25,282 nucleotides of DNA. Source: Bacteroidota bacterium. GTDB taxonomy: Bacteria > Bacteroidota > Ignavibacteria > UBA10030. A model generated the notes under the pieces. The model had not been told where the DNA came from and searched no databases. It worked only from the letters and a program-made list of their open reading frames with translations. Position 1 is the stretch's first letter, and the number at the start of each line of letters is the position of its first letter. The stretch is taken from the NCBI GenBank assembly GCA_036396395.1, contig DASWKY010000083.1, forward strand, positions 1 to 25,282, in the 5' to 3' direction. Made by a program: the position numbers and the translations under genes. Below, piece by piece: positions 361 to 24,446 of this stretch.

Positions 361-630
361 TTACGCTCCTACATTTTGCTGTGGCGAGCGGGCTCCTCTT
401 AAAAGACCTTCGGTGCTCAAGTCCTCGTCAATCTCGGGCCAGTGGATACCGTACCCGCCGCCCGCGAGTTCCCATGTTGAACGCTGTCCTTGTGTCGCGT
501 TAAAAAGTCGCGGGTACCATGCCAAGGGAACGGTAATCGTCCTTCCGTCCATCAGGTCAACGCTGAGGGCGTCTTCGGTTACCCGCACGTCTTTCACCCG
601 TTCGTCAGTTCCCGCTACCGAAGTACTCAT
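361..630 (-). CDS. DUF2442-family protein, putative antitoxin-like partner (89 aa)
   Basis: Pattern V..V.V..D.L.V.L.DGR.I.VPL.WYPRL..AT..QR..WEL..GG.GIHWPEIDEDLS..GLL is characteristic of DUF2442. Overlaps the upstream gene by 26 nt. Confidence 0.8.
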   Translation of the reverse strand: MSTSVAGTDERVKDVRVTEDALSVDLMDGRTITVPLAWYPRLFNATQGQRSTWELAGGGYGIHWPEIDEDLSTEGLLRGARSPQQNVGA

Positions 631-7068: not shown

Positions 7069-7214
7069 TTTGTTTTAAGGTGGTGCTTCTTGGAATTCCG
7101 TATAATATAGAGATGCTCGATGCAGAATGCAACCGCAGAATGAAATTCTAACACGGAAATTGATTGTCTCCCGCTCTCCTTGTATATTGTTCCAGCACAG
7201 AGACACACGACTTC

Positions 7215-8753
7215 ATGATGAAAAATTTTTCGCTTCGGGTTCAGGTCTTTATCACCGTCGGGGTATTACTTCTCGGTTTGGTGAGCGCGACCGTTTACAT
7301 AGCTGATACTGTGCGAGATGCGCGCGAAAGCATCGTGCGCCTCAACCGCGAACGGTTAAGCTCGCTCACCTCAAACCTTGCCCGCCGCTATGGCAGTGTC
7401 TTGAATTTTGTCGCCCCCGAACAGTCCGGGCAGACATCGCTTGCGGAACGCCCGGAGCTTCTCGAACAGTTCGCCGCCATCACACGAGAAGAACTGACGA
7501 AAGCGCCCGATACGGAAGCGGGTTTTTTTCATTTTCTCTGGAACCGGGAACTGGTGCATTCAAATACAACTCCCCCGACAAGCTCTCTTGTTAACGTGAG
7601 GACGTTCCGGCAGTTCCTTCCCCCCATCCTGCAGACAACCAGCAATGAAGAACTGGAACAATGGACGCATTACGAATCGTCTGCGGCGAGTTTTATTATT
7701 GTTACCCAGCCGGTCTATGCGCGTAATCAACTGGTTGGGGCGGCGTGGGCATTCGATGACCTCGGTGATGAATTGTCTTCGGCGTGGCCGCAGGACGTAA
7801 CGCTCTTTCTGCAATTTGTCGTTGTGCTGGGGATACTGCTTGCGATTTCATTTGTCGTCACATTAAGCCAGGAAGTGAAATCCATCCGAGACGGCCTCTC
7901 GCGGATGAAGGAAAATCTCACCGCGCGCTTGCCGGTTTCACGCTCGGAGATGGGAAGTATCGCGGGGTCCATCAATGAGTTGGCGAATACAATTGTACAG
8001 CAACAACAAGAGAAGGAGGAACTCCAGCGTACCATCCAACAGCAAGAGAAACTCGCATCGCTGGGACAATTAATTGCCGGTGTTGCGCATGAAGTCCGCA
8101 CACCGCTCACAGGTATTAAGACCCGCATTCAACTCTGGCAGAAAGCCCTCCGAAGCTCAAAGAGAAAGAGTACAAACACGCCCGAAGGTCCTACGCCGAA
8201 GTCCATGCGTCTGGTTGTGGAACAACTCGACCGTATGGAAACCATCGTTCAGAAGCTGTTGTATTTTTCCAAGCGGAGGTCGCCTCATTTCCAGAGCGTG
8301 AACATGCACGAATTGCTGGACGATTTTATAGAAGAGATCCGGGTAGAGGCGAAAAAACAACGCGTGAGCATCGAACGCGTGTACGGGTCGAACACACCCA
8401 TGGTTTCCATCGATGTTTCGGAGATACGCGAAGTTTTCCAAAACCTGTTTCGAAATTCTTTGGATGAAATGATGAAGGGCGGGATTTTGCGCATCAACAC
8501 GTTTGTTGAGAATGGGCAGAACGTGCTTCATGTCTCCGTTGAAGATTCAGGATCCGGCGTCGACCCTCAACTCGTTCCCAACATCTTCGACCCGTTTTAT
8601 ACGACAAAAGATTCCGGCGTCGGGCTGGGCCTCTCCATTGCATATGAGATCATCCGCTCGCACCAAGGCAACCTGTGGTACGAACAGAGCATGCTCGGAG
8701 GTGCGCGGTTCACCGTTACGCTACCGTTAAACGTCGCGCGGAAGGATACATAA
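7215..8753 (+). CDS. Membrane sensor histidine kinase, NtrB-like (about 512 aa; ATG 7215 preferred over 7164)
   Basis: Two TM helices around an extracytoplasmic domain, HAMP-like linker, H-box AHEVRTPL, N-box NLFRNS, G1 DSGSG, F-box FDPFYTTK, G2 GVGLGL. Confidence 0.92.
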   Translation: MMKNFSLRVQVFITVGVLLLGLVSATVYIADTVRDARESIVRLNRERLSSLTSNLARRYGSVLNFVAPEQSGQTSLAERPELLEQFAAITREELTKAPDTEAGFFHFLWNRELVHSNTTPPTSSLVNVRTFRQFLPPILQTTSNEELEQWTHYESSAASFIIVTQPVYARNQLVGAAWAFDDLGDELSSAWPQDVTLFLQFVVVLGILLAISFVVTLSQEVKSIRDGLSRMKENLTARLPVSRSEMGSIAGSINELANTIVQQQQEKEELQRTIQQQEKLASLGQLIAGVAHEVRTPLTGIKTRIQLWQKALRSSKRKSTNTPEGPTPKSMRLVVEQLDRMETIVQKLLYFSKRRSPHFQSVNMHELLDDFIEEIRVEAKKQRVSIERVYGSNTPMVSIDVSEIREVFQNLFRNSLDEMMKGGILRINTFVENGQNVLHVSVEDSGSGVDPQLVPNIFDPFYTTKDSGVGLGLSIAYEIIRSHQGNLWYEQSMLGGARFTVTLPLNVARKDT

Positions 8754-8760
8754 TTACGGT

Positions 8761-10137
8761 ATGAAAACTCAATACAGTGTTCTGGTAGTCGATGACGAAG
8801 CGATCAGCCGCCTGAATATCAAGGATGCCCTGGCGACCGAGGACATTGATGTGAACGAGGCGGCAGACGGGCTTGCCGCTCTCGCCCAACTGAAACGGAA
8901 AACGTACGACGCCGCCCTGCTGGATATCCGGATGCCGAAAATGGACGGATTGACGGCGTTAACACAATTCAAAAAGATAGCTCCCGATATGCCTGTTATC
9001 GTCTTTACCGCTTACGGGACGAGTGAAAAGGCGATTGAAGCCATGAAGATCGGGGCATTCGACTACCTGACGAAACCGTTCGACCTTGAAGAATTATTGG
9101 CGGTCATCCGCCGTGCGCTCGAACACCGCCAGCTCTCGACGCGTGTCGAGGCGCTCCAGCAGTTCATCGTAGACCGTGAATCCGGCGAATTCCAGCCCGA
9201 CCAACTGGTCAGTAAAAGCCCCTCTATGCAAAAGATTTTCAAGATGATCGGGCAGGTTGCGTCTTCGGACGCAACTGTCCTCATTGAGGGCGAAACGGGA
9301 ACGGGCAAGGAGTTGGTGGCAAACGCGCTCTGGTATCATTCTGAGCGGCGCAACGCGCCGTTCATCAAAATCAATTGTGCGGCGATACCCGAAAGCCTGC
9401 TCGAAAGTGAATTGTTCGGCCACGAGCGCGGGGCGTTCACCGGTGCAGAGTCGCGGCGGCTGGGGCGTTTCGAACTCGCGCACAAAGGGACGTTGTTCCT
9501 GGACGAAGTGTCGGAAATGAGCACGCAACTGCAATCCAAATTGTTGCGCGTACTCGAACAGAGCGAGTTCCAGCGCGTGGGTGGCAGTGAAACGATTCAC
9601 GTGGATGTGCGCATCCTCGCGGCGACGAACCGTACCCTGCAGGATGAAGTGCGTTCAGGGCGTTTCCGCAAAGATCTCTACTTCCGGTTACAGGTTGTGC
9701 ATCTACTACTCCCTCCTTTGCGAGAACGCACGGAAGACATTCCCGTGCTGGTAAAACATTTTCTCAAAAAATATGGCGGGAAACGCAATCTCGCCTCCGA
9801 TACGAAACTCATCAAACAACTGCTCGAATATCCCTGGCCCGGGAACGTGCGCGAACTGGAAAACGTCATCCAGCGCGCCACGGTCCTGGTGCAGGGAAAA
9901 GTGATTTCGCTTGACCATTTATCTCTCCCTTCAACAGGCACTGAAGAGACCGGTAGCGCCATTTCAAACGACCGAACCTCTCTCAATCTCCGCAAAACTC
10001 TTCAAACCGTAGAACGCGACCTCGTTCTCAAAGCTCTGCAAAAAGCAAAATGGAACCGCTCGAAGGCGGCGAAGTTGTTAGGTATCAACCGTCGTCTTTT
10101 GTACGGGAAAATAAAAGAGTACGACCTGCATCAGTAA
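8761..10137 (+). CDS. Sigma-54-dependent response regulator (NtrC-family enhancer-binding protein, 458 aa)
   Basis: Receiver domain (VVDDE, LLDIRMP), Walker A GETGTGKE, GAFTGA, Walker B LFLDEV, and a Fis-type HTH (WNRSKAAKLLGINRRLLY). Confidence 0.96.
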   Translation: MKTQYSVLVVDDEAISRLNIKDALATEDIDVNEAADGLAALAQLKRKTYDAALLDIRMPKMDGLTALTQFKKIAPDMPVIVFTAYGTSEKAIEAMKIGAFDYLTKPFDLEELLAVIRRALEHRQLSTRVEALQQFIVDRESGEFQPDQLVSKSPSMQKIFKMIGQVASSDATVLIEGETGTGKELVANALWYHSERRNAPFIKINCAAIPESLLESELFGHERGAFTGAESRRLGRFELAHKGTLFLDEVSEMSTQLQSKLLRVLEQSEFQRVGGSETIHVDVRILAATNRTLQDEVRSGRFRKDLYFRLQVVHLLLPPLRERTEDIPVLVKHFLKKYGGKRNLASDTKLIKQLLEYPWPGNVRELENVIQRATVLVQGKVISLDHLSLPSTGTEETGSAISNDRTSLNLRKTLQTVERDLVLKALQKAKWNRSKAAKLLGINRRLLYGKIKEYDLHQ

Positions 10138-10140
10138 CAA

Positions 10141-10176
10141 GGGCTAATCCCTCCCATGTGGGCGAAATCAGCCCAC
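10141..10176. promoter_or_regulatory. Candidate tandem upstream activator sites for cassette A
   Basis: Two GGG-N9-CCCA units starting at 10141 and 10160. The second is the palindrome GTGGGC-GAAATCA-GCCCAC (10158-10176), about 50 bp upstream of a sigma-54 core. Confidence 0.45.
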
Positions 10177-10226: not shown

Positions 10227-10242
10227 GGGCACGCCAGTTGCA
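10227..10242 (+). promoter_or_regulatory. Sigma-54 (-24/-12) promoter of cassette A
   Basis: GGGCACG-CCAG-TTGCA matches the consensus TGGCACG-N4-TTGCW with exact spacing, 43 nt before ATG 10286. Confidence 0.8.
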
Positions 10243-10285: not shown

Positions 10286-10786
10286 ATGAATACCGGCCAA
10301 ACGATGTTGACCGTCGGCGCGATGGTTTTACTCGGATACACAGTTCTGATGACAAATCGTTCTTCGTTGACGCACGGAGTAATCCTCCAGCAGACGGAAA
10401 TCGGCGTGTACATGATTTCGCTCGCAATTTCACGAATTGAAGAAGCTTCCGGCAGAGCGTTCGATGCGGCATCGGCGGGCGATATTGTGACATCAACAGC
10501 CGCGTTGACGGCGGGTGGCTCCTTTGGTCCCGCAACGGGAGAAACATATCCGGATTTTAACGACTTCGACGACTATGACAATTTTGCCAAAATTGACACC
10601 ATACCGGGAGTAGATATACTGCGGGTGCATTCCCTTGTCAGGTATATAGAGCCCGCCAACCCGGACAGCGTGTTGAACTCTAGCACAAAGACATTCCATA
10701 AAAGAATGGACGTGACGGTAACCGGCACATCCACCAGCGATACACTACGGATGTCCTATATTTTCAGTTATTGGGCATTTCGTTAA
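10286..10786 (+). CDS. Cassette A gene 1: PilV/MshD-like pilin-fold protein without canonical leader (166 aa)
   Basis: N-terminal hydrophobic helix (GQTMLTVGAMVLLGYTVLM), IEEASGRAFD and FNDFDDY motifs as in MshD-like proteins. RBS TAAGGA. Confidence 0.65.
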   Translation: MNTGQTMLTVGAMVLLGYTVLMTNRSSLTHGVILQQTEIGVYMISLAISRIEEASGRAFDAASAGDIVTSTAALTAGGSFGPATGETYPDFNDFDDYDNFAKIDTIPGVDILRVHSLVRYIEPANPDSVLNSSTKTFHKRMDVTVTGTSTSDTLRMSYIFSYWAFR

Positions 10787-10798
10787 TCAGGGGATATT

Positions 10799-11425
10799 AT
10801 GGGCTCTAGTACGATACTCGACATTATTACTTCTGTTATCATTGCAGGATTTCTCCTGCTCACCGCGTTGCGGCTGAACGACCAGGCGAACGAGACGTCC
10901 ATTCTGTATCATTCCAACCTGTTATTACAGCAAAATATGACCGCGCTGACGGGCATTTTGGAACATGATTTCCGCCGCATCGGGTTTTGCGCAGACTATA
11001 AAAAAATTAAGGATCCCGCTGACGCAATCCGTTACGCCGATACCAGTAAAATCCGTTTTTGGCTGGATCTCGACAACGATGGGGTCATGGATTCCATCGA
11101 ATACTCTATAGGCCCGCCGAGCGAGATGACCTCTACAGTAAATCCCCGCGACCGTGTCCTGTACCGTAAAGTAAATAACACGACAGCCCAGCGGTTGGAG
11201 ATGGGTGTGACTCAATTTCGTTTCAAATTTTTTAACGCGCTTGGCGATACACTGCTCTTCCCCATCGCTGAGCCGCGTGAAATCCATTCGATGGAAATAT
11301 CCCTCCAAATAGAAAGTTTTGCACCGTTCGATGTGCGCTACACCGCATCGAATGACACGCTGGCGGACTTCCAGATGTACTGGCGCCAGATCCGCCTCGC
11401 GGCGCGCAATCTTCGCAACCGATAA
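10799..11425 (+). CDS. Cassette A gene 2: PilW/MshO-like pilin-fold protein without canonical leader (208 aa)
   Basis: ILDIITSVIIAGFLLL helix, LEHDFRRIGF (PilW-type D.R.aG[YF]), DLDNDG loop, C-terminal RN motif. Confidence 0.65.
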   Translation: MGSSTILDIITSVIIAGFLLLTALRLNDQANETSILYHSNLLLQQNMTALTGILEHDFRRIGFCADYKKIKDPADAIRYADTSKIRFWLDLDNDGVMDSIEYSIGPPSEMTSTVNPRDRVLYRKVNNTTAQRLEMGVTQFRFKFFNALGDTLLFPIAEPREIHSMEISLQIESFAPFDVRYTASNDTLADFQMYWRQIRLAARNLRNR

Positions 11426-11439
11426 GAAAGGCCTCTCCT

Positions 11440-12642
11440 ATGGGACGCGCATCCATGATTATGGTGATGAGTTATAGCACGGTGCTGATGATGATGGGGT
11501 TTAACATCTCCAAAGTCTCCAACTCAGCATATGAAAACTACATTGATTATTACGAGCGTACCGTTGCTCATAATATCGTCAACAGCGGAGCGAATTTAGC
11601 CGCTCAGCAAATCTACGTACAGCCGAACTGGCGCACCGGGTACTCGAACAAACCGATGTTCGGCGGCACAATCAATGCGGCGGTCACGACCCAATCGGAC
11701 AGCACATTAAAATTATTCGTTACCGCTGAGTACAAAACCTACCGGGATACTGTCATTGTGGTATTACAGCCGAGTAGTTTTTCTAAATTTTCGTACTATA
11801 GCAATATTGAAGGCAATATCTGGTGGACGTCCAAAGATACCGTGTGGGGACCGATGCATACGCAGGACTACCTCGGCGTGGCAAACTCGCCTGTGTTTTA
11901 CGGAAAGGTTACGTCAAAGAAGGGGTTAGAAATACATAGCGGCGGCGCCAACCCGAAATTCTACGGCGATTTCCAATCCGGCGTATCGCTTGAGCTTCCG
12001 TCCGACTTGAATCCCCTGAAAAGTGCCTCTGCCTCCGGCGGGAGATACATCTATGATAATGATGTCTCCATCGAATTCATGGATGACAGCGCGAAAGTGA
12101 AAATCGGTACCTCGGCTGATACGATGGTGTATCTCCCGACGTGGGCGCCTAACGGCGCCATCCTTGTGGAAAAGGGCAACCTGAGGCTGAAGGGAACAGT
12201 AAATAAATCCTTAACGGTCGGAGCGTTGGAAGGCGGAAGTTCCTCAAAAGGAAAAGTGTATTTTGATGACGATCTAAAGTATAAATACGACCCGCTTCTG
12301 TACCCAGATTCCACGGTGGTTGTGGGTGTTGTTGCTGAAGATTCTCTTGTCATTACTCAGAATAGCGCAAACCAAGAAGACATCATTATACAAGCCGCTC
12401 TCTTTTCCCTCACCAAGGGGCTTGGCTCAGAAAATTACAACATAGGAGACCCGCGCGGAAAAATCGAATTGCTTGGCGGTATTACTCAGTACCAGCGCGC
12501 CGCAGTCGGTACGTTTAGCGGTGAGAGTATCACTCATGGTTACTCTAAACGCTACCGGTACGATGAACGCCTGATGGTGATACGGCCTCCGTTTTTCCCA
12601 ACAACTGGAAGCTACGAAGTGCTCTCGTGGTACGAAAGATAG
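11440..12642 (+). CDS. Cassette A gene 3: PilX/MshP-like protein with a large C-terminal domain (400 aa)
   Basis: MGRASMIMVM helix with no acidic +5 residue, PilX-like AHNIVNSG..LA, beta-rich C-terminal domain, terminal LSWYE. Confidence 0.62.
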   Translation: MGRASMIMVMSYSTVLMMMGFNISKVSNSAYENYIDYYERTVAHNIVNSGANLAAQQIYVQPNWRTGYSNKPMFGGTINAAVTTQSDSTLKLFVTAEYKTYRDTVIVVLQPSSFSKFSYYSNIEGNIWWTSKDTVWGPMHTQDYLGVANSPVFYGKVTSKKGLEIHSGGANPKFYGDFQSGVSLELPSDLNPLKSASASGGRYIYDNDVSIEFMDDSAKVKIGTSADTMVYLPTWAPNGAILVEKGNLRLKGTVNKSLTVGALEGGSSSKGKVYFDDDLKYKYDPLLYPDSTVVVGVVAEDSLVITQNSANQEDIIIQAALFSLTKGLGSENYNIGDPRGKIELLGGITQYQRAAVGTFSGESITHGYSKRYRYDERLMVIRPPFFPTTGSYEVLSWYER

Positions 12643-12673
12643 TGTAGCAATTCTATATCAACACCATTTATTG

Positions 12674-12710
12674 TGCCTCAAATTGATACATTTATTATCG
12701 ATTTGAGGCA
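12674..12710. promoter_or_regulatory. Pair of 17-bp inverted sites, candidate enhancer for cassette B (could also form an RNA hairpin ending cassette A)
   Basis: TGCCTCAAATTGATACA (12674-12690) and, on the minus strand, TGCCTCAAATCGATAAT (12694-12710). Centres are 20 bp apart. Confidence 0.5.
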
Positions 12711-12812
12711 TAGCTGTGTAAGATGCGTTTACGCGCTTGTTATATATCACCTGTTTACTTAGTGTTTTGATATATTATTTAATTTCTTTGTAGCTTTGTA
12801 TGTATTGCTCTA

Positions 12813-12827
12813 AGGCATGGTTTTTGT
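12813..12827 (+). promoter_or_regulatory. Sigma-54-like promoter of cassette B
   Basis: AGGCATG-GTTT-TTGT has correct GG-N10-G spacing but T instead of C at -12. It lies about 100 bp downstream of the paired sites across an AT-rich spacer. Confidence 0.45.
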
Positions 12828-12916
12828 GCCTATTCTAGTAATGGGTGTCTCAGGACGAAGCAATTCCCCATTTCAGCTATTTTCGCCTGAATGAATTATT
12901 GTAATTATTCCATACT

Positions 12917-13534
12917 ATGTCCGGAACAAACTCATTTCTTGTGCTTGGGGCATTGGTGCTCCTGTCGTTGCTTTCGCTTTCTGCAAACCGGGCGATGATT
13001 TCAAGTTACGCCAATTTGCTGGAAACGCAGGCAATGATTGCGACTATTGCCGAAGCGGAGAATCTCATTCAAGAAATCAGTTCGAAATCGTTTGACCAAG
13101 TTATCGCTGTCGAACAGTCGAGCGCGGGGAAATCTTCTGGCGGTGGTTCTTCATCCGGCGGTGGACTGTCTCAGGGTAAGGGACAGTCACAAGGCGGAGG
13201 GCCGTCAGAGGGCGAAGGACCTCCGTTTATTCCGCCGGGGTGGTTAAAACGAAAAAAGCCGGCAGACTTCACGCCACCCGGCTTGCTTGGCAAAGAGCAG
13301 GGTGAAAAATATCCTTTCTTTAACGACGTGGACGATTATCACGGCTTGCAAAAAAAACACGACCATCCGGTTTTTGGGTCAATCGAATTGAGCGTGACCG
13401 TACAGTATGTGGACCCGAACAATACAGCGACGATTTCCTCGGACAAACAATCCCTGGTAAAAAAAGTAGAAGTGAAGGCGTTTAATAAAGGGCTTGAGGA
13501 CACATTGAAATTATACCACGTAATCTACCAGTAA
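12917..13534 (+). CDS. Cassette B gene 1: PilV/MshD-like protein with a Gly/Ser-rich insertion (205 aa)
   Basis: FLVLGALVLLSLLSLSANR helix, IQEISSKSFD, FNDVDDYHG. Paralogous to 10286-10786. Confidence 0.65.
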   Translation: MSGTNSFLVLGALVLLSLLSLSANRAMISSYANLLETQAMIATIAEAENLIQEISSKSFDQVIAVEQSSAGKSSGGGSSSGGGLSQGKGQSQGGGPSEGEGPPFIPPGWLKRKKPADFTPPGLLGKEQGEKYPFFNDVDDYHGLQKKHDHPVFGSIELSVTVQYVDPNNTATISSDKQSLVKKVEVKAFNKGLEDTLKLYHVIYQ

Positions 13535-13540
13535 TCTATT

Positions 13541-14122
13541 ATGGGATCGACAACCGACCTTATAGGATCCTTTGTTATCGGCGGGCTTGTTATCGTTATT
13601 ATTCTGTCATTGAATTACAACCTCAGCAATACGACATTTCAGCGTTCGCAGGACTTGATTTCACAACAAGCATCGGTCGAACTCTTGAACATATTGGAAA
13701 ACGACCTGTATAAAGCGGGGTACCGTACGACCGCCACCCCTGTTCTGCTCGCAGAATCTTTGTCGGTTGCTTTCCTTGCCGACCTTGACGATAACGGCAC
13801 GATAGACTCCGTGCGATACACCGTAGGCGATACGACATTTTTTCTGACAACAACGAACCCGCACGACAGGCCTCTCTATCGGAGGCTGAACGCCGGAAGT
13901 CAACAAAACGTCGCTTCCGGCTTGACAGAATTTTATTTCGCGTACCGGGACACCGCCGGAAGTGTGATACCGTACGATTCTCTCAAATACGTGCGCCATA
14001 GGTCGGTCGTCCGCCTTATCACATTTGCGTTCGTGATCGAACCGAGCGACCCGCTGGATTCGACATTTATTCCGGTAACAGCAGAAAAAGTGATTCATCC
14101 AAAAAATATCGGGGGTTGGTAA
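13541..14122 (+). CDS. Cassette B gene 2: PilW/MshO-like protein (193 aa)
   Basis: DLIGSFVIGGLVIVII helix, LENDLYKAGY, DLDDNG, NPHDRPLYR, PKN. Paralogous to 10799-11425. Confidence 0.65.
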   Translation: MGSTTDLIGSFVIGGLVIVIILSLNYNLSNTTFQRSQDLISQQASVELLNILENDLYKAGYRTTATPVLLAESLSVAFLADLDDNGTIDSVRYTVGDTTFFLTTTNPHDRPLYRRLNAGSQQNVASGLTEFYFAYRDTAGSVIPYDSLKYVRHRSVVRLITFAFVIEPSDPLDSTFIPVTAEKVIHPKNIGGW

Positions 14123-15256
14123 GTGGGACGCGCTTCGCTCATTATGATCCTCGGTGCATCAATTACCGTCGGCGTGATGAACTTACAGCTCAACCGCGCG
14201 TCCGAACAGGCGACGGAAAATCTCGTCCGCTATTTTGACGGGACACTTTCCCGAAACCTTGCCAACGACGCGGCGTCGTATGTATTGGGGTTGTATGCCG
14301 ACAGTGCGACTCTGCGCGTACAAAACTCAGCGAAACTTTCTTCGTCGATTTTCAGCGATGTCGGAGACCATAGCCTTACGTATTCACTGTATGATACGAC
14401 GATCAACATCGAGAAGAACGACCACGAGGTCGTGAAGCTTGTGATGCGTGCTGAATATGGAAAGAGCGTTCACGAGGTGATGGTGTATGCCGGCACAACT
14501 TTTGGGTTCGTTCCGGAGCCTCTTCGCGGCGCGGTTACCGCCAACGGGGTGCTGGATAATACGATTGGCGACCTGCACATCGACGGCAGGAACCATACGG
14601 AAGAAGGCGAGCTTGAGAACTTTGGCGGGGTGTACGGCATATCCTCCGGAAGCGCCTTTACTAACAAGGGAAAAGCAGTTATCGGCGGAACCGATGAAGA
14701 TGGGAACGACTACCCTGCGAGCAATCCGGCGAATACCCTTTCAGTGGAACAGAGCCACAATTGGAGCAATACATTTCCTGCTGACCCCGACGGAGTTTTT
14801 AATTTCCCCGGAGGCACGTTGAAAGAAGTCGCCAAGAGCGGCGTCGCGGGAAGCCAATACGTGGCGAACCCGAAAGACCTCCAATTCCCGCTCAAGGGTG
14901 TAACATACGTGGACCTTCCCGAAGGCGTATCGTGGAAGGCGGCATGGCTGGGGAAGGACCCTGCCGGCATTCTCGTCGTCCATAATTCATCCGGCACGGC
15001 GCGTGTGGAGAATATCGCTTCGGAGACTCCCTTTAAGGGGTTGATTATCGCAGATAAAATGTTCCATATTCATGCTGACGTGCTGGGCGCCGTTATGCTC
15101 TTATCGAATAGTTTAGAAAAGAAAAAAATCTGCACCGGCAACCACGAGAACAAGATATTATTCAGCCGCGAGGCAATTCAACACGCCACCTACCTGACAT
15201 CGGAAAAGGGAACGGGGTGGCGGGGCAGGGTACCGATCTTCGGGTGGATGGAATAA
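14123..15256 (+). CDS. Cassette B gene 3: PilX/MshP-like protein (377 aa, GTG start)
   Basis: GRASLIMILG helix, SRNLANDA, IDGRNH, terminal FGWME. Starts immediately after the previous TAA. Confidence 0.62.
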   Translation: MGRASLIMILGASITVGVMNLQLNRASEQATENLVRYFDGTLSRNLANDAASYVLGLYADSATLRVQNSAKLSSSIFSDVGDHSLTYSLYDTTINIEKNDHEVVKLVMRAEYGKSVHEVMVYAGTTFGFVPEPLRGAVTANGVLDNTIGDLHIDGRNHTEEGELENFGGVYGISSGSAFTNKGKAVIGGTDEDGNDYPASNPANTLSVEQSHNWSNTFPADPDGVFNFPGGTLKEVAKSGVAGSQYVANPKDLQFPLKGVTYVDLPEGVSWKAAWLGKDPAGILVVHNSSGTARVENIASETPFKGLIIADKMFHIHADVLGAVMLLSNSLEKKKICTGNHENKILFSREAIQHATYLTSEKGTGWRGRVPIFGWME

Positions 15257-15257
15257 G

Positions 15258-15668
15258 ATGAAACTCTTACTTTCCATATTAATTGCAACACTCCTTCAAC
15301 AAGGGAACCCCCAGTCGAATTCCCAGGCAGGCTCGGACAGTACACCGTTGAAAACCGTCGAGCTTTTCAAGAAAGGCATTGATGAAAATGATATGCTGGT
15401 GATTTGTAAAGTCATGTCCGACGAAGAAGGCACGGGTCCACTGAAGCAGGCGAGCTACGAACAGATGCAGAGTTCCCTCGAAGGGTTAAGCACGATGTGG
15501 CGTGCGAAACCGTTTACCTACGGCGAAACGACATACACCGGGGGCAACACGGCGACATCCGCGACGGTAAAGGTGGAAGTGAAGAGCCTGAAGCAGGAAG
15601 TAAACTTTGTTCTGGAGAAGTACGGCAATTCGTGGTATATCTTCGATATTGAAATTTTCTTCAGGTAA
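15258..15668 (+). CDS. Small exported protein, possibly NTF2-like/DUF4878-like fold (136 aa)
   Basis: Short signal-peptide-like start MKLLLSILIATLL, C-terminal ATVKVEV...FVLEKYGNSWYI pattern, 1 nt after the cassette B gene 3 stop. Confidence 0.6.
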   Translation: MKLLLSILIATLLQQGNPQSNSQAGSDSTPLKTVELFKKGIDENDMLVICKVMSDEEGTGPLKQASYEQMQSSLEGLSTMWRAKPFTYGETTYTGGNTATSATVKVEVKSLKQEVNFVLEKYGNSWYIFDIEIFFR

Positions 15669-15682
15669 CACATGAAGTCCTT

Positions 15683-15745
15683 GTGCATCCCGGTCATCGG
15701 TAACGGGATTCCTCGCCCCAATAACACGGCGAGACCCGGGATGAC
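15683..15745. repeat. REP-like element of the GTCAT...ATGAC type (degenerate)
   Basis: GTGCATCCCGG...CGGGATTCC-TCGCC...GGCGAG-ACCCGGGATGAC, with nested hairpins. Confidence 0.55.
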
Positions 15746-15752
15746 TCTCCCC

Positions 15753-15793
15753 AAAAACACAACGGGCATGTACTCATGTACATGCCTGTTGTG
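15753..15793 (-). terminator. Intrinsic terminator for cassette C
   Basis: 16-bp stem CACAACGGGCATGTAC / GTACATGCCTGTTGTG with a TCAT loop, followed on the minus strand by TTTTT (plus-strand AAAAA 15753-15757). Confidence 0.75.
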
Positions 15794-15813
15794 TGTACGC
15801 TAAATGCTATCCG

Positions 15814-16863
15814 TCATTCATACCAATAGACGATTTGGTAGTACCTCAGCTTGCCGATGTTTTTCGCGTTGGTGAGCGCGGCACTGCTGTAGAGCACCTT
15901 TCCGTTCGCGCCGGTACCTTTCAGCGTGAGGCTCGCGGCGCCATCGCCGGGTTGAGCCACAATAAGACCGCCGACAATTTTTGGCGTTCCCGCGCCGCCA
16001 AAGTTTACCGTATTCGACTCTCCAAACACAACGACGAGGCCGTACCATTCGAAGTTTCCGCCAATTTCGATATTGCCGCGTACTGCAAGGATGCCATATC
16101 CGACGGTGCCGCCGGTGAATTTCACCTTGTAGTTCGTATCGGCGGGCGAATCGCACACGACGATAACAGGGTTCGTAGATGAGCCGTATGTTTGTCCGCT
16201 GTAAGTCCCCGTAGTGAGATAATAATCGGCGTTGCTTAAATACTCTTGAATGTAGTCCGCTGGATTAGCAAGAGAATCGTCCACGATGACTTCTGTCGAG
16301 CCTTGAATATTATCTCCGGGGGTGTCGTCTTCCGCATCCATAATGGTGGCTGAATCTGTGGAGTTTAACACCCCGACACCGGGAAGATCGCCTGAGCCGA
16401 CAAGGGCTGTCCCGTCAGCATTCCAGTTATGACCGTCGACAGTCGGCTGGCCACTCATAGTGAATGTTACTGGCGATGCCCGAATGCCGATAGCGGAGCT
16501 GACGCCAGGGAAGGGTTTGGTATAGCGGAAAAGCTTGAGGTACATTGTATAGCTCGTATCGGTATATCTGCCTTGGGCTGTCAGCCAGACCGTATCGCGA
16601 GGGCTTTCGCTGTATTGCGCACTGGTGATTTGGTATTCGCCGTTGGCAAAGTCTATTGTTTCCGTTGTGTCTGGGTCCACGTTACGGTCGTACCCGCGCA
16701 AGGTCGCGTGGACCGCCGTGCGTGCGAGGTTGCGGGCGTACATGTATTTGTAGTACGTATAATTGTTCTCGAGCGCGCGCTCTGTCGTGCCCGAGATATT
16801 GGAAGCGATTGTCGCCATCGCCATCCCCAACCCCATAACCATAAATAATGCGGCTCGTCCCAT
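15814..16863 (-). CDS. Cassette C gene 3: PilX/MshP-like protein (349 aa)
   Basis: MGRAALFMVMGLG helix, ARNLARTAV, VDGHNW, beta-repeat GYGILAVRGNIEIGGNFEWYGLVVVFG, terminal VYWYE. RBS GAGGA. Confidence 0.62.
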   Translation of the reverse strand: MGRAALFMVMGLGMAMATIASNISGTTERALENNYTYYKYMYARNLARTAVHATLRGYDRNVDPDTTETIDFANGEYQITSAQYSESPRDTVWLTAQGRYTDTSYTMYLKLFRYTKPFPGVSSAIGIRASPVTFTMSGQPTVDGHNWNADGTALVGSGDLPGVGVLNSTDSATIMDAEDDTPGDNIQGSTEVIVDDSLANPADYIQEYLSNADYYLTTGTYSGQTYGSSTNPVIVVCDSPADTNYKVKFTGGTVGYGILAVRGNIEIGGNFEWYGLVVVFGESNTVNFGGAGTPKIVGGLIVAQPGDGAASLTLKGTGANGKVLYSSAALTNAKNIGKLRYYQIVYWYE

Positions 16864-16875
16864 AGTGCGTCCTCG

Positions 16876-17463
16876 TTATTGGAGATTGCCCATATTCCGC
16901 GGATAGATCAGTTTTTCCCAGAAGACGGAGATATAGGTCGTAATGTCCGGCAGAATAATCGGCGCGTGGCTCTGTACGCGAAAATACACTTGAATGGCGT
17001 GTATCGAATCGCGCGACGCTCCCGTTACCGGAGCGGTTAATGTATTAAACGTGCTGTCAAGATATGTCATGCTGAACTCCGTGACGCCGATGTTGTGTTC
17101 CACCGTCACGCCGTTTTCCGTGCGGTAGAGAGTGTGGTCGTCTGGATTCTCAGAGGCAGGATCTTCGGGTCCCAACTCGTAGGTCACCGTACGCATCGTC
17201 GCATCGTTCAAAATGTAGTACTTGAAGCGGATCTTGTTCGCCTCCGCCGTATCCACTTTGGTGCCGCTCACGTTAAAACCCATTTTATGAAAATCGAACT
17301 CGACTGTTTTGGCAAGCTCGAGCGCGTAGTTTTGGGTCATGTAGTTATACGTGTTGTAGTACATCGTCGAGTTCATATTGATCTGCACGCGCCCGATGGT
17401 AAACATTAGCGAGCCGAAGATGATCGTCGAAGCCATGATATCCATCATTGCACTGGAACCCAT
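16876..17463 (-). CDS. Cassette C gene 2: PilW/MshO-like protein (195 aa)
   Basis: MMDIMASTIIFGSLMF helix, VEFDFHKMGF, NPDDHTLYR, GVTEF, YPRN. RBS AGAGGAG. Confidence 0.65.
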   Translation of the reverse strand: MGSSAMMDIMASTIIFGSLMFTIGRVQINMNSTMYYNTYNYMTQNYALELAKTVEFDFHKMGFNVSGTKVDTAEANKIRFKYYILNDATMRTVTYELGPEDPASENPDDHTLYRTENGVTVEHNIGVTEFSMTYLDSTFNTLTAPVTGASRDSIHAIQVYFRVQSHAPIILPDITTYISVFWEKLIYPRNMGNLQ

Positions 17464-17478
17464 ATTCTTCTCCTCTGG

Positions 17479-18054
17479 TTAGAAGTAACGCCGGTAAATA
17501 GAGATATCCTGCAGGCTGATCCAGATGGTTGAGTCGTTCAAATCAACTGGTAAGTTCGGGTGATAGCAGTCCACATTAACCACCTTGTAGTGTGTTCTGT
17601 CTGTGATTAACGAGTCCGGATAGGTTTCACGCGCATACGTGACCGTGCTTTTGATGTAAAACCAGCCGAGAATGCTGTCTTTGACGGCACGGTGATAGTT
17701 ATGGTAGTCGTCCACGTCGTCAAATCTTGTTTTCGAAAGATAACTCGTGTCAACGTTGCTGTAGCCGAGAATTGTTCCCAGACCGAGAAGATTCAGCGAC
17801 TCACCTGATCCGTCGGGCCCGAAATTCGCCGAAGTCGTAAATTGACTATCGGCATAGACCAAGGTCCCGATTGAATTCTCGTCAAAGTCCCGCGCGAGAA
17901 TTTCATCGAGCAGGGTTTGGGCGATCGAGAGAGCATTAAGCTGTGACTGCGCTTCCAGCCCCGTCGCGATAGACGAAATAAACGTGCCGTTGATGCTCAG
18001 CGTCAGCATGGCGAGCATCGTCAAAGCCCCTACTACCAACATCGTTTGTCCCAC
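17479..18054 (-). CDS. Cassette C gene 1: PilV/MshD-like protein (191 aa, GTG start)
   Basis: GQTMLVVGALTMLAML helix, LLDEILARDFDE, FDDVDDYH. RBS AAGGAG. Confidence 0.65.
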   Translation of the reverse strand: MGQTMLVVGALTMLAMLTLSINGTFISSIATGLEAQSQLNALSIAQTLLDEILARDFDENSIGTLVYADSQFTTSANFGPDGSGESLNLLGLGTILGYSNVDTSYLSKTRFDDVDDYHNYHRAVKDSILGWFYIKSTVTYARETYPDSLITDRTHYKVVNVDCYHPNLPVDLNDSTIWISLQDISIYRRYF

Positions 18055-22487: not shown

Positions 22488-23138
22488 CTACAACGACTTA
22501 ATCACCCGCACAACTTTCCAGACAAACGACACATCTTTTTTCCGCACCACCATCGGCTCAAACTCCGGGTTCAGCGGCACGAGCTGAATGAACTCCGTTT
22601 CGATCTTCACGCGCTTCACCGTATCCTCGTCGTTCACGCGCACCACACAAATATCGCCACTGCGGGATTCTTGCTTCGGGCTGACCACAATCACGTCGCC
22701 GTCCTCGATGCGGGGCGCCATGCTGTTGCCCTTCACCACGAGCGCGAACGCGTTCGCGTCGCTCACGTTGTCCACGGTGATGTACTTTTCGACGTAGTCC
22801 GCGTGAAAGTACAAATTCGGCGCGCCGCCGGGGACGGACGACAATAACGGAACCGTCACTAACTCGACGCGCTTATAGCGGCTCATCGGCAAGTGCACAA
22901 TTTTCTTCTCCGTGGTCGTTCGCGCGAACATGTCGCCCTCGCCCGTTAAGAGCCAGTGGGCAGTCACGCCGGCCATCCGTGCAATGCGCATCAGGTAGTT
23001 GCTGTCCGGCGCCTGTTCGCCGTTCTCCCATCGCTGGATGGTGCGGGTAGCGACATCGATTTTCGCGGCGAGCTTCGCCTGGTCAAACCCTTTCGAAAGC
23101 CGCGCTTCGCGAATCCGCCGAGCAAGTTTAGTGTTCAT
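22488..23138 (-). CDS. XRE-type HTH plus S24 peptidase repressor (LexA/CI-like, 216 aa)
   Basis: N-terminal HTH (QAKLAAKIDVATRTIQRWENG, WLLTGEG), catalytic Ser in KGNSM and Lys in TVKR. RBS AGGAG. Confidence 0.9.
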   Translation of the reverse strand: MNTKLARRIREARLSKGFDQAKLAAKIDVATRTIQRWENGEQAPDSNYLMRIARMAGVTAHWLLTGEGDMFARTTTEKKIVHLPMSRYKRVELVTVPLLSSVPGGAPNLYFHADYVEKYITVDNVSDANAFALVVKGNSMAPRIEDGDVIVVSPKQESRSGDICVVRVNDEDTVKRVKIETEFIQLVPLNPEFEPMVVRKKDVSFVWKVVRVIKSL

Positions 23139-23169
23139 ACTGTCATGTCTCCTGAAAAATACAATCCAG

Positions 23170-23263
23170 ATGTCATTCTGAGCGTAGCGAAGAATCCCGC
23201 TTTCATATCGGCAGCTCTTATAACGAGTTTCTTCCGTAGGGATGCCTACGGCAGGAATGACAT
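23170..23263. repeat. REP-like element of the GTCAT...ATGAC type
   Basis: ATGTCATTCTGAGCGTAGCGAAGAATC ... TTCTTCC-GTAGGGATGCCTAC-GGCAGGAATGACAT, with terminal inverted ends. Confidence 0.65.
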
Positions 23264-23300
23264 AGTTTTTTTTCCTAAATATATATTTGTCGCATCGCGC

Positions 23301-23329
23301 TTGACACTATGACAAATTTGTCGTATCCT
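23301..23329 (+). promoter_or_regulatory. Sigma-70 promoter of the radical SAM gene with a palindromic operator in its spacer
   Basis: TTGACA (23301-23306)-N17-TATCCT (23324-23329). Perfect palindrome GACAAATTTGTC at 23311-23322. Confidence 0.7.
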
Positions 23330-23338
23330 CGCGCGGTC

Positions 23339-23367
23339 AACATACATAAAATTTTCATTTCTGTCAA
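23339..23367 (-). promoter_or_regulatory. Candidate sigma-70 promoter of the repressor gene, face-to-face with the one above
   Basis: Minus strand TTGACA-N17-TATGTT. Confidence 0.5.
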
Positions 23368-23378
23368 GAGGCATTACC

Positions 23379-24446
23379 ATGTTTTCGCTCACGATTAAAG
23401 GCCGGGGAGCGGGATTCAACCCGCCCAACCGGTTTGAGGAAATCTCCGTCGGTCCTCCCCCTGAAGACATTGCCCAGTATTTCGAGGAGCCGGACCTGGA
23501 GCGCAAAATCCCCACCAAATATTATATGGATAATACCAAAACGATATTGTCCAATAATGACAGCCCTGATATCGGCTTCCGGTACAGCATCAACCCCTAC
23601 CGGGGGTGCGAGCACGGATGTATTTACTGTTACGCCCGGCCGTCGCATGAGTATTTGGGGTTCTCGTCGGGTATGGATTTCGAGACGAAAATCCTCGTGA
23701 AAATGGACGCGCCGAAGCTCTTGGCGGAAGAACTTCGCAAGCCTTCGTGGGAACCGCAAGTCGTCGCGTTCTCCGGCAACACGGATTGCTACCAGCCGGT
23801 AGAACGAAAGTTAGAAATTACGCGCAAGTGTGTGGAGGTGTTTTTGAAATTCCGCAACCCGTTCGGGATGATCACCAAGAATGCTCTCGTCCAGCGCGAC
23901 ATTGACCTGCTGAAAGAACTCTCGTCTATGAATCTCGTGTGCGTTACGGTCAGCATTACGTCGCTGGATAACGAACTGATCAGAAAAATGGAGCCGCGCA
24001 CATCTGCGCCGCATAAGCGGCTGGAGACTATCGAGGTGCTGGCGAAAAACGGTATTCCCGTCGGCGTGAATGCCGCGCCGATCATCCCCGGCTTAACCGA
24101 CGTGGAGATCCCCGCCATCCTTAAAGCCGCCTCGGAGCGCGGAGCGAAATGGGCGGGACATACCATCGTGCGGCTCTCGTACGCGCTAAAGGATTTGTTC
24201 GTGGACTGGGCGAACCGCAACGTGCCGGAGAAAGCGCCGAAGATCATCAACCGCATCAAAGAGGTGCGCGGTGGGAAACTATCTAATTCCGACTTCGGCA
24301 CGCGAATGTCCGGCGAAGGGGAAATCGCCGAATCCATCCACCAGTTGTTCGAATCGAGCTGTCGTCGTTATCATCTCAATGAAGAACGGATGCATTTGAG
24401 CAAAGCGCACTTCACAAGGAACGCAGACCAGGTGGAGATGTTTTGA
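23379..24446 (+). CDS. PA0069/Rv2578c-family radical SAM protein (spore photoproduct lyase-like, 355 aa)
   Basis: KGRGA..NPPNRFE start, SINPYRGCEHGCIYCYARP (CxxxCxxC), NTDCYQPVER. Confidence 0.9.
   Translation: MFSLTIKGRGAGFNPPNRFEEISVGPPPEDIAQYFEEPDLERKIPTKYYMDNTKTILSNNDSPDIGFRYSINPYRGCEHGCIYCYARPSHEYLGFSSGMDFETKILVKMDAPKLLAEELRKPSWEPQVVAFSGNTDCYQPVERKLEITRKCVEVFLKFRNPFGMITKNALVQRDIDLLKELSSMNLVCVTVSITSLDNELIRKMEPRTSAPHKRLETIEVLAKNGIPVGVNAAPIIPGLTDVEIPAILKAASERGAKWAGHTIVRLSYALKDLFVDWANRNVPEKAPKIINRIKEVRGGKLSNSDFGTRMSGEGEIAESIHQLFESSCRRYHLNEERMHLSKAHFTRNADQVEMF

What the first reader, a model, noticed from the sequence alone, without database searches (positions are those of the whole stretch)
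10286..18054. Triplicated PilV/W/X-like minor-pilin cassette: candidate undescribed type IV filament tip system
Seen: three gene trios in the same order (A 10286-12642 +, B 12917-15256 +, C 18054-15814 -) with position-matched motifs. Gene 1: EI/EA...FD and F[ND]D[FV]DDY. Gene 2: E.D[FL]...G[FY], NP.D..LYR, G[VL]T.F, terminal [PA][RK]N. Gene 3: MGRA, [HR]N[IL], terminal W.E. Known: these motifs and this order match the PilV-PilW-PilX / MshD-MshO-MshP (GspI-J-K) priming complex of type IV filaments. The copies are highly diverged, so this is old paralogy. No major pilin, FimU/GspH, PilY1, ATPase, platform protein, secretin or peptidase is in the window. Inference: a set of interchangeable tip modules for one filament or surface machine encoded elsewhere, in a lineage better known for T9SS-based surface biology.
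Basis: partly seen in the sequence, partly recalled or inferred. Interest (0 to 1): 0.88.

Follow-up and report, generated by a model that had tools for sequence, protein, structure and literature searches.

The report
Three spare pilus-tip gene sets
A soil Ignavibacteria genome carries three old, diverged copies of a three-gene set for the small proteins that start and cap a type IV pilus. The kind is known, but these pilins have no leader peptide and the lineage mostly lacks the enzyme that normally trims one.

Summary
There are three trios (A 10286-12642 +, B 12917-15256 +, C 18054-15814 -) with every quoted motif. Paralogues are 20-31% identical.

- Gene 2 models as GspJ/EpsJ/XcpW (Z 9.4-10.9).
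- Gene 3 models as a GspK-type pilin with an inserted beta-solenoid, like Thermus ComZ (Z 17.1).
- Gene 1 has PilV-like structural neighbours.
- Trio A is predicted to form a heterotrimer (ipSAE 0.79, best control 0.03).

The machine lies elsewhere: pilin, PilC- and PilB-like proteins, PilT, a PilM/N-like protein and a secretin. In 151 genomes of the class, gene 2 occurs in 81 and the machine in 83, with the same family pattern. In relatives a trio sits inside the machine operon. The closest relative has a fourth, embedded trio, so A-C are accessory sets. A conserved sigma-54 promoter and two-component pair precede A.

Several minor-pilin sets serving one machine, and beta-solenoid PilX/ComZ caps, are already published. 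The unusual part is this: all nine proteins start M-(0-2 residues)-G with no leader, and only 7 of 151 genomes have a prepilin peptidase. Function and interchangeability are untested.

The parts
7164..8753 (+). Sensor histidine kinase (HAMP, HisKA, HATPase_c)
   Evidence: Pfam hits. The same position upstream of trio A is kept in relatives L003 and L004.
8761..10137 (+). NtrC-type sigma-54 activator (REC, Sigma54_activat, HTH_8)
   Evidence: Pfam hits. A 65%-identical orthologue lies directly upstream of the A-type trio in G046, another genus of the same family.
10227..10242 (+). Sigma-54 -24/-12 promoter-like site GGGCACGCCAGTTGCA, 43 nt before the gene 1A ATG
   Evidence: Only match in the window with 1 mismatch or fewer. 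Conserved as CGGCACGGCAGTTGCA, 46 nt upstream of gene 1A, in L003 and L004. It lies just after a terminator-like hairpin at 10158-10176.
10286..10786 (+). Gene 1A, GspI/PilV-like minor pilin (166 aa), N-terminus MNTG-QTML
   Evidence: ESM Atlas structural neighbours are N_methyl-bearing pilin clusters (TM 0.82) and a PilV-family cluster (TM 0.62). It is predicted to bind genes 2A and 3A. Some relatives carry the JGI name MshD.
10799..11425 (+). Gene 2A, GspJ/PilW-like minor pilin (208 aa), N-terminus MG-SSTILD
   Evidence: AF2 model pLDDT 79, with helix 3-59 followed by a beta-sheet. Best structural matches: EpsJ Z 10.9, XcpW 10.2, TTHA1219 9.9, GspJ 9.4; the next match is 5.1. Precomputed PF27121 PpdB (weak) and JGI name PulJ.
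11440..12642 (+). Gene 3A, GspK/PilX-position tip pilin with an inserted beta-solenoid (ComZ-like), 400 aa, N-terminus MG-RASM
   Evidence: AF2 model pLDDT 89. Foldseek gives ComZ (6qvi) at E 8e-10. VIA gives ComZ Z 17.1, ice-binding/DUF3494 solenoids Z 13-15 on residues 112-381, and GspK Z 10.8 on the pilin part. DUF4900 hit at E 8e-6, below the cutoff.
12813..12828 (+). Weaker -24/-12-like site AGGCATGGTTTTTGTG, 89 nt before gene 1B
   Evidence: Read from the sequence. Relatives have GGGCACAGATGTTGTG 87 nt before gene 1B. The -12 element is GT, not GC, so this is a lead only.
12917..13534 (+). Gene 1B (205 aa) with a Gly/Ser-rich insert
   Evidence: Paralogue of genes 1A and 1C (E 2e-11 and 8e-14).
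13541..14122 (+). Gene 2B (193 aa)
   Evidence: Paralogue of genes 2A and 2C (E 6e-25 and 6e-18).
14123..15256 (+). Gene 3B (377 aa, GTG start)
   Evidence: The N-terminal 50 aa is homologous to genes 3A and 3C. Atlas feature neighbours are 'PilX N-terminal domain' clusters.
15258..15668 (+). 136-aa ORF after trio B with a Sec-type signal peptide; not pilin-like
   Evidence: Translation. No family hit. Conserved as 135 aa in L003 and L004.
15765..15786 (.). GC-rich hairpin between the convergent ends of trio B and trio C
   Evidence: Terminator-like site with 9 pairs.
15814..16863 (-). Gene 3C (349 aa)
   Evidence: Atlas model pTM 0.73. Structural neighbours include a PilX_N-bearing cluster at TM 0.69.
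16876..17463 (-). Gene 2C (195 aa)
   Evidence: Paralogue of gene 2A (E 2e-27). In the tree it groups with the machine-embedded copies of G152 and G046.
17479..18054 (-). Gene 1C (191 aa, GTG start)
   Evidence: Paralogue of genes 1A and 1B. It is 40-46% identical to the machine-embedded gene 1 of G152 and G046.

Best explanation
Each trio encodes a GspI-like, a GspJ-like and a GspK/ComZ-like minor pilin. These assemble, through their N-terminal helices and head domains, into a heterotrimer that primes and then caps a filament. The filament is built by a type IVa-pilus-like machine encoded elsewhere: an MGQQQLL-type candidate major pilin, PilC-like and PilB-like proteins, a PilT-family ATPase, a PilM/N-like protein, a GspM-like protein and a short secretin. 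Trios A, B and C are accessory sets that add to a core set embedded in the machine operon. They differ most in the large domain of gene 3, so they probably give the same filament different tips, for example for adhesion or DNA binding. Trio A, and perhaps B, is switched on by the adjacent sigma-54 two-component pair. The pilins are made without a leader peptide and probably enter the filament without prepilin-peptidase processing. Shown here: paralogy, folds, predicted complex, co-occurrence, operon context in relatives, absence of leaders, rarity of the peptidase. Inferred: filament incorporation, tip location, alternative use, regulation, lack of processing.
For: Folds: gene 2A matches EpsJ/XcpW/GspJ at Z 9.4-10.9 against 5.1 for the next hit. 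Gene 3A matches ComZ at Z 17.1 and Foldseek E 8e-10, and GspK at Z 10.8 on the pilin part, with the solenoid inserted before the last strand as in ComZ (PMC6561018). Gene 1A has N_methyl and PilV-family structural neighbours. Genes 3B and 3C have PilX_N-type neighbours. The trio A complex, with TM helices removed, scores ipSAE 0.79 against a best control of 0.03; that mark was reached by 58 of 80 solved complexes and 2 of 110 mismatched pairs. Co-occurrence in 151 class genomes: gene 2 profile in 81, machine protein in 83, with identical family-level pattern except for incomplete genomes of one family. A trio lies between the PilB-like and PilT genes in G009, G129, G046, G152 and G155. The own genome holds parts of the machine and an MGQQQLL pilin-like gene. 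The PilT-like protein scores 318.7 bits against TIGR01420. The sigma-54 site and the regulator linkage are conserved.
Against: No curated sequence model (Pfam, NCBIfam, PDB profiles) is matched above its threshold by any of the nine proteins. The defining class III signal peptide is absent, and Glu5 is missing. No prepilin peptidase was found in the own genome, though it is only 58.6% complete. The candidate major pilin has no significant match to known pilins. There are no expression data, because only DNA soil metagenomes hold the locus. The complex pass may partly reflect the model's memory of GspIJK-like structures. Trio C has no recognisable promoter.
Confidence: 0.72

Rival explanations
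1. The trios are pseudopilus tips of a type II-like secretion system. They would act as a piston cap that pushes folded proteins through the secretin, and would not be exposed on a pilus.
For: The best structural matches for genes 2 and 3 are T2SS pseudopilins: EpsJ, XcpW and GspJ, plus GspK on the pilin part of gene 3. The 294-aa machine protein weakly resembles GspM (E 1e-4). The so-called Bacteroidetes T2SS is known to branch with T4aP (PMC6668835).
Against: A PilT/PilU-family retraction ATPase lies in the same operon, which is typical of retractile pili and not of T2SS. Thermus T4P minor pilins also resemble T2SS pseudopilins most closely (PMC6561018), so the fold match does not discriminate. 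The gene 2 family was not found in the Bacteroidia-like families sampled (0/39, 0/13, 0/12).
Confidence: 0.12
2. The proteins are membrane-anchored surface or periplasmic proteins that keep a pilin-like fold but are no longer polymerised. This would follow because they are not processed by a prepilin peptidase.
For: They have no leader and no Glu5, and the peptidase was found in only 7 of 151 genomes.
Against: The trio co-occurs strictly with, and is embedded in the operon of, an otherwise complete extension/retraction machine. The N-termini are extremely conserved across hundreds of clusters, as expected for a helix that packs in a filament core. A heterotrimer like GspIJK is predicted.
Confidence: 0.1
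3. One or more trios are dedicated competence-pilus sets. The beta-solenoid of gene 3 would act as a DNA receptor like Thermus ComZ, and the cassettes would serve DNA uptake, not adhesion.
For: ComZ is the closest solved structure to gene 3A, and ComZ binds DNA at the pilus tip (PMC6561018). ComEC is present in the own genome and in four relatives. Cyanobacteria use one of two minor-pilin sets for competence pili (PMC13759059).
Against: Sequence identity to ComZ is only 11-14%. ComEC is also present in organisms that are not known to be competent (controls). The solenoid also resembles ice-binding proteins and cellulose-binding tapirins, so the ligand is open. This is a sub-case of the best explanation, not a true alternative.
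Confidence: 0.2

Closest known systems
GspI-GspJ-GspK pseudopilus tip complex of type II secretion (ETEC 3ci0; EpsI/J 2ret; XcpVWX 5vtm)
   Same: The gene order is small, middle, large. Gene 2 has the GspJ fold (Z 9.4-10.9). The pilin part of gene 3 matches GspK (Z 10.8). A heterotrimer is predicted through the alpha-1 helices and the edge strands.
   Different: There is no class III leader and no Glu5. The gene 3 insert is a beta-solenoid placed before the last strand, not the alpha-helical domain of GspK. The machine carries a PilT-family ATPase. There is no GspH-like fourth pilin next to the trio.
Thermus thermophilus pilA2-pilA3-comZ competence pilin locus (TT_C0855, TTHA1219, ComZ 6qvi)
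   Same: A GspJ-like pilin (TTHA1219, Z 9.9) is followed by a tip pilin with an ice-binding-protein-like beta-solenoid inserted between the penultimate and last strands (ComZ, Z 17.1). ComZ itself is not predicted to be a PilD substrate (PMC6561018).
   Different: ComZ is larger (about 550 aa) and 11-14% identical. The other Thermus pilins have canonical leaders, and the genome has PilD. Thermus has one locus, not three or four.
Multiple minor-pilin sets for one machine: M. xanthus clusters 1-3 (PMC7541494) and the two cyanobacterial core sets with beta-solenoid PilX (PMC13759059)
   Same: There are several paralogous priming sets in each genome, with one set near or in the machine genes. In cyanobacteria the cap is a beta-solenoid PilX and there is no PilY1. 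The idea is that different sets give specialised filaments.
   Different: Those systems have four minor pilins per set (FimU/V/W/X) with type III signal peptides and PilD. Here each set has three genes, the pilins are leaderless, and three sets are clustered away from the machine under a sigma-54 two-component pair.
MSHA minor pilins MshD-MshO-MshP
   Same: JGI names a few gene 1 relatives MshD. The order and sizes are similar. MSH loci also lack their own prepilin peptidase (PMC6668835).
   Different: MSH genomes always carry a peptidase from another system (PMC6668835), whereas most genomes here do not. No MSH-specific family was matched.

Membership tests
Type IV pilin / pseudopilin superfamily | Long N-terminal hydrophobic alpha-1 helix packed on a beta-sheet head | tested here: met
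   Gene 2A has helix 3-59 plus a sheet. Gene 3A has helix 3-60 plus a sheet. The gene 1A Atlas model has pilin neighbours.
Type IV pilin / pseudopilin superfamily | Class III signal peptide: a short basic leader ending in Gly, then a hydrophobic stretch with Glu at +5 | tested here: not met
   All nine start M-(0-2 aa)-G, with no basic residue before the Gly. In-frame stops lie 0-5 codons upstream for 8 of 9 starts. Genes 1 and 3 have no acidic residue at +5, and gene 2 has Asp at +6. The same N-termini are conserved in about 120 relatives of each family.
Type IV pilin / pseudopilin superfamily | A prepilin peptidase (Peptidase_A24) in the same genome | tested here: not met
   None was found in the own genome, which is 58.6% complete. 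It was found in only 7 of 151 class genomes, against 83 with the machine. Controls were positive in 12 of 14 genomes.
Type IV pilin / pseudopilin superfamily | Genetic association with PilB/PilC-type ATPase and platform genes | tested here: met
   A trio lies between the PilB-like and PilT genes in five relatives. Co-occurrence is 81 versus 83 of 151 genomes.
GspJ / PilW / PpdB (gene 2) | GspJ fold | tested here: met
   EpsJ, XcpW, TTHA1219 and GspJ are the top four of 48,161 chains, at Z 9.4-10.9.
GspJ / PilW / PpdB (gene 2) | Match to the curated sequence model above its cutoff | tested here: not met
   NCBIfam PRK10557 scores 18.7 bits against a cutoff of 120. PF27121 PpdB is only a precomputed 'weak' hit. 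The PDB profile search gave nothing.
GspK / PilX / ComZ tip pilins (gene 3) | Pilin domain with a large inserted domain; no Glu5 | tested here: met
   ComZ Z 17.1 over 306 residues, and GspK Z 10.8. The insert lies between strand 101-113 and the last strand 388-399.
GspK / PilX / ComZ tip pilins (gene 3) | PilX_N (PF14341) or T2SSK sequence match | tested here: not met
   No local Pfam hit apart from DUF4900, which is below its cutoff, and only for gene 3A. The link to PilX_N clusters comes only from Atlas neighbours.
GspI / PilV (gene 1) | Small pilin fold that bridges the J and K subunits | tested here: inconclusive
   Atlas neighbours are pilin clusters, and the predicted complex has gene 1 touching both partners.
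Type IVa pilus machine | PilB, PilC, PilT, PilM/N/O-like proteins and a secretin in one system | tested here: met
   No PilP, PilY1 or PilD was recognised.

The most novel reading that the evidence does not exclude
Ignavibacteria, and at least two other non-Bacteroidia families in the same phylum, run a retractile type IVa-like pilus entirely on leaderless pilins. These comprise an MGQQQLL-type major pilin family (at least 723 clusters at 50% identity) and MG-type minor-pilin trios, with no prepilin peptidase. This would be a peptidase-independent branch of the type IV filament superfamily. It would explain why pilA and pilD were reported missing in Melioribacter roseus. The three cassettes here would be condition-specific tip modules under sigma-54 control.
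Probability: 0.45. Interest if true: 0.8.

Novelty: new variant of a known kind. Interest (0 to 1): 0.62.

Why it matters
A leader peptide cut by a dedicated prepilin peptidase is treated as a hallmark of all type IV filaments (PMC4471445, PMC6668835). A large lineage whose machine co-occurs strictly with pilin-fold proteins that have no leader and no peptidase would show that the processing step is dispensable. It would also change how such systems are searched for in genomes, because searches for class III signal peptides miss them. The M. roseus genome paper, for instance, reported pilA and pilD as missing. The three or four tip sets with different beta-solenoid domains offer a natural test of how one machine makes filaments with different tips in abundant soil and sediment bacteria.

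Tried and rejected
- Pfam and NCBIfam scans of the nine proteins gave nothing above threshold.
- Profile searches of the gene 1, gene 2 and major-pilin alignments against PDB sequences gave nothing significant.
- hhalign of the major-pilin profile against the gene 1 profile matched only 13 N-terminal columns, with 1% probability.
- Foldseek on the full-length gene 2 model gave only one weak pilin hit (TTHA1219, E 2e-3), because of the long helix. The all-against-all VIA search resolved this.
- A search for RNA runs found only soil DNA metagenomes, so there is no expression evidence.
- A sigma-54 site scan found nothing before trio C, before the machine-embedded trios or before the pilin genes.
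- I first took the own-genome PilC/PilB-like pair on contig C170 for the core machine. It is a second, paralogous pair: 85-87% identical to G152:C35, but only 38-50% identical to the core-operon pair.
- The 136-aa ORF after trio B was considered as a fourth minor pilin. I rejected this because it has a Sec-type signal peptide and no pilin helix.
- ComEC presence was checked as a clue to competence but does not discriminate.
Full report
**Observation.** Alignments show every quoted motif. BLASTP among the nine proteins gives E 6e-12 to 8e-14 for the gene 1 copies and 6e-18 to 2e-27 for the gene 2 copies. For gene 3 it gives 4e-8 to 1e-5, and only over the first ~50 residues. Identity is 20-31%, so these are old duplications.

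A 136-aa ORF (15258-15668) follows trio B and is conserved in relatives. It has a Sec-type signal peptide and is not pilin-like. The rest of the window encodes ion transporters, a histidine kinase, a sigma-54 activator, an E1 dehydrogenase and other housekeeping genes. There is no pilus machinery.

**What the proteins are.** No curated sequence family is matched above its threshold. The only hits are DUF4900 for gene 3A at E 8e-6 and PRK10557 for gene 2A at E 8e-4. Relatives number in the hundreds of 90% clusters, and all named ones come from Ignavibacteria or 'Bacteroidota' MAGs. A few carry JGI names: PulJ for gene 2 and MshD for gene 1. Gene 2 also has a precomputed weak PF27121 PpdB hit, and gene 3 has PF16241.

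Structure prediction settles the matter.
- **Gene 2A** (pLDDT 79) is a 57-residue helix on a beta-sheet. Its four best matches among 48,161 chains are EpsJ, XcpW, Thermus TTHA1219 and GspJ (Z 9.4-10.9), and the next match is 5.1.
- **Gene 3A** (pLDDT 89) has the same helix, a four-stranded sheet, a long beta-solenoid and one final strand. Its best match is the Thermus competence tip pilin ComZ (Foldseek E 8e-10; Z 17.1 over 306 residues). The insert matches ice-binding-type solenoids (Z 13-15), and the pilin part matches GspK (Z 10.8). The insertion point, before the last strand, is the one described for ComZ (PMC6561018).
- **Gene 1A** has an Atlas model whose neighbours are N_methyl-bearing pilin clusters (TM 0.82) and a PilV-family cluster.
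- **Genes 3B and 3C** have 'PilX N-terminal domain' clusters as neighbours.

With the first 27 residues removed from each chain, trio A is predicted to form a complex in which gene 1 touches both partners. The score is ipSAE 0.79 against a best control of 0.03. That mark was reached by 58 of 80 solved complexes and 2 of 110 mismatched pairs. The pass may partly reflect the model's memory of GspIJK.

**The machine.** The own genome is a 58.6%-complete soil MAG. It holds the following parts:
- a PilC-like plus PilB-like pair behind another sigma-54 activator on contig C170;
- a 531-aa PilM/N-like protein, a 294-aa GspM-like protein and a 403-aa secretin on contig C13;
- a 128-aa protein starting MGQQQLLLVILGVIIVG on contig C173.

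In relatives the full operon reads: MGQQQLL pilin(s), PilC-like, PilB-like, gene 1, gene 2, gene 3, PilT-family ATPase, PilM/N-like, GspM-like, secretin (G009, G129, G155). G046, from the same family, has the trio on the opposite strand at the same place.

The closest relative, G152, has the same A-B-C cluster and also a fourth trio inside this operon. The own contigs break exactly there and no PilT gene is assembled. A fourth, core trio is therefore probably missing from the MAG, and A-C are accessory sets.

The C170 pair is a second PilC/PilB-like pair, not the core one.

In 151 genomes of the class, the gene 2 profile hits 81 and the 531-aa machine protein hits 83. Presence and absence by family are identical except in one family of incomplete genomes. 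Gene 2 matches number 1-6 per genome, and tandem cassettes occur elsewhere too. The gene 2 family is also found in other families of the phylum (31/33 and 4/4), but not in three large families (0/39, 0/13, 0/12).

**History and regulation.** A gene 2 tree separates two clades. The A-type clade holds window A, the single trio of a complete 4.6-Mb genome, and the machine-embedded copies of G129 and G009. The second clade (support 95/99) holds B, C and the embedded copies of G152 and G046. B sits on a long branch, so its placement is uncertain. C is therefore closest to the core set of its own family, and the A versus B/C split is old.

A near-consensus sigma-54 -24/-12 site (10227-10242) lies 43 nt before gene 1A, directly after the kinase and activator pair. 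It is conserved in relatives. The activator is also linked to the A-type trio in another genus. Trio B has a conserved but weaker GGCA-N6-TTGT site, and trio C has none. Regulation is inferred, not shown.

**The unusual feature.** All nine proteins start M-(0-2 residues)-G and run directly into the hydrophobic helix. In-frame stops lie 0-5 codons upstream of 8 of the 9 starts, and Shine-Dalgarno-like motifs sit in front of them, so a leader peptide cannot be hidden. The N-termini are nearly invariant across relatives: MNTGQT.L, MG[FS]ST..D and MG[RK].S.

The candidate major pilin family has 1,788 representatives at E <= 1e-3 and 723 at E <= 1e-10. Almost all of its short members start MG.QQL.

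A prepilin peptidase domain was found in only 7 of the 151 genomes, and all 7 also carry the machine. The control search was positive in 12 of 14 genomes. Where the peptidase is present, it sits in a separate cluster beside a canonical prepilin, MLKKILKNQSG-FSITELL. This fits the report that M. roseus has pilB, pilC, pilT and pilQ but no recognisable pilA or pilD (PMC3534657).

I found no paper that describes leaderless pilins. MSH loci lack their own peptidase but borrow one from another system (PMC6668835). The pilin identity of the MGQQQLL protein rests only on its position, size and N-terminus.

**Comparison and verdict.** Three-subunit priming and tip complexes, several minor-pilin sets for one machine (PMC7541494, PMC13759059) and beta-solenoid tip pilins (PMC6561018, PMC13759059) are all known. 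The triplication itself is therefore a new member of a known kind. The absence of a leader and of the peptidase fails two defining features of type IV pilins, while fold, complex and machine context are met. I therefore file the system as working like a minor-pilin tip module but as a variant of the family. Function, whether adhesion, DNA uptake or secretion, remains open, as does interchangeability of the sets.

Noticed in passing
G000 contig C173:4069-4455 (own genome, outside the window); also L026:2566-2967, L015:5191-6036, L021:2915-3304, L036:397-873: This is a family of ~128-aa proteins starting MGQQQLLL, encoded first in the machine operon. It has 1,788 representatives at E <= 1e-3. 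Its head domain also occurs, repeated, in longer proteins with Sec signal peptides. It is the candidate leaderless major pilin, but no fold evidence was obtained.
   Followed up: partly
G000 contig C170 (L017:12-4436); orthologue G152:C35 (L027): A second, stand-alone set of sigma-54 activator, PilC-like and PilB-like genes. It is paralogous to the core-operon pair (38-50% identity). It might be a dedicated motor for accessory filaments; this is untested.
   Followed up: partly
151 genomes of the class: A prepilin peptidase A24 domain was found in only 7 genomes, although 83 carry the PilB/PilT/secretin-type machine.
   Followed up: partly
window 15258-15668: A conserved 136-aa secreted protein is encoded 1 nt after gene 3B and has no family match. 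It may be a trio B-specific accessory factor.
   Followed up: partly
L018:1097-2551 (own contig C13); L019:5082-8699; L020:3770-8452: A large protein with Big_1, invasin-D3 and CarboxypepD_reg domains (484 to 1,560 aa) always follows the secretin gene of the machine operon. It could be a surface adhesin or a machine-associated protein.
   Followed up: no
L030 (G270:C76:12207-15836): Two A-type trios lie in tandem in another genus of the same family. G145:C3 has three gene 2 copies spaced about 2.5 kb apart. Cassette amplification therefore recurs in the class.
   Followed up: no
window 22488-24446: An XRE-S24 (LexA-like) repressor is divergent from a radical SAM gene. Another first-reader note covers this, and I did not examine it.
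   Followed up: no
window 361-630 (-): A DUF2442 small protein gene (E 3e-25) lies near the window start. It is unrelated to the finding.
   Followed up: no
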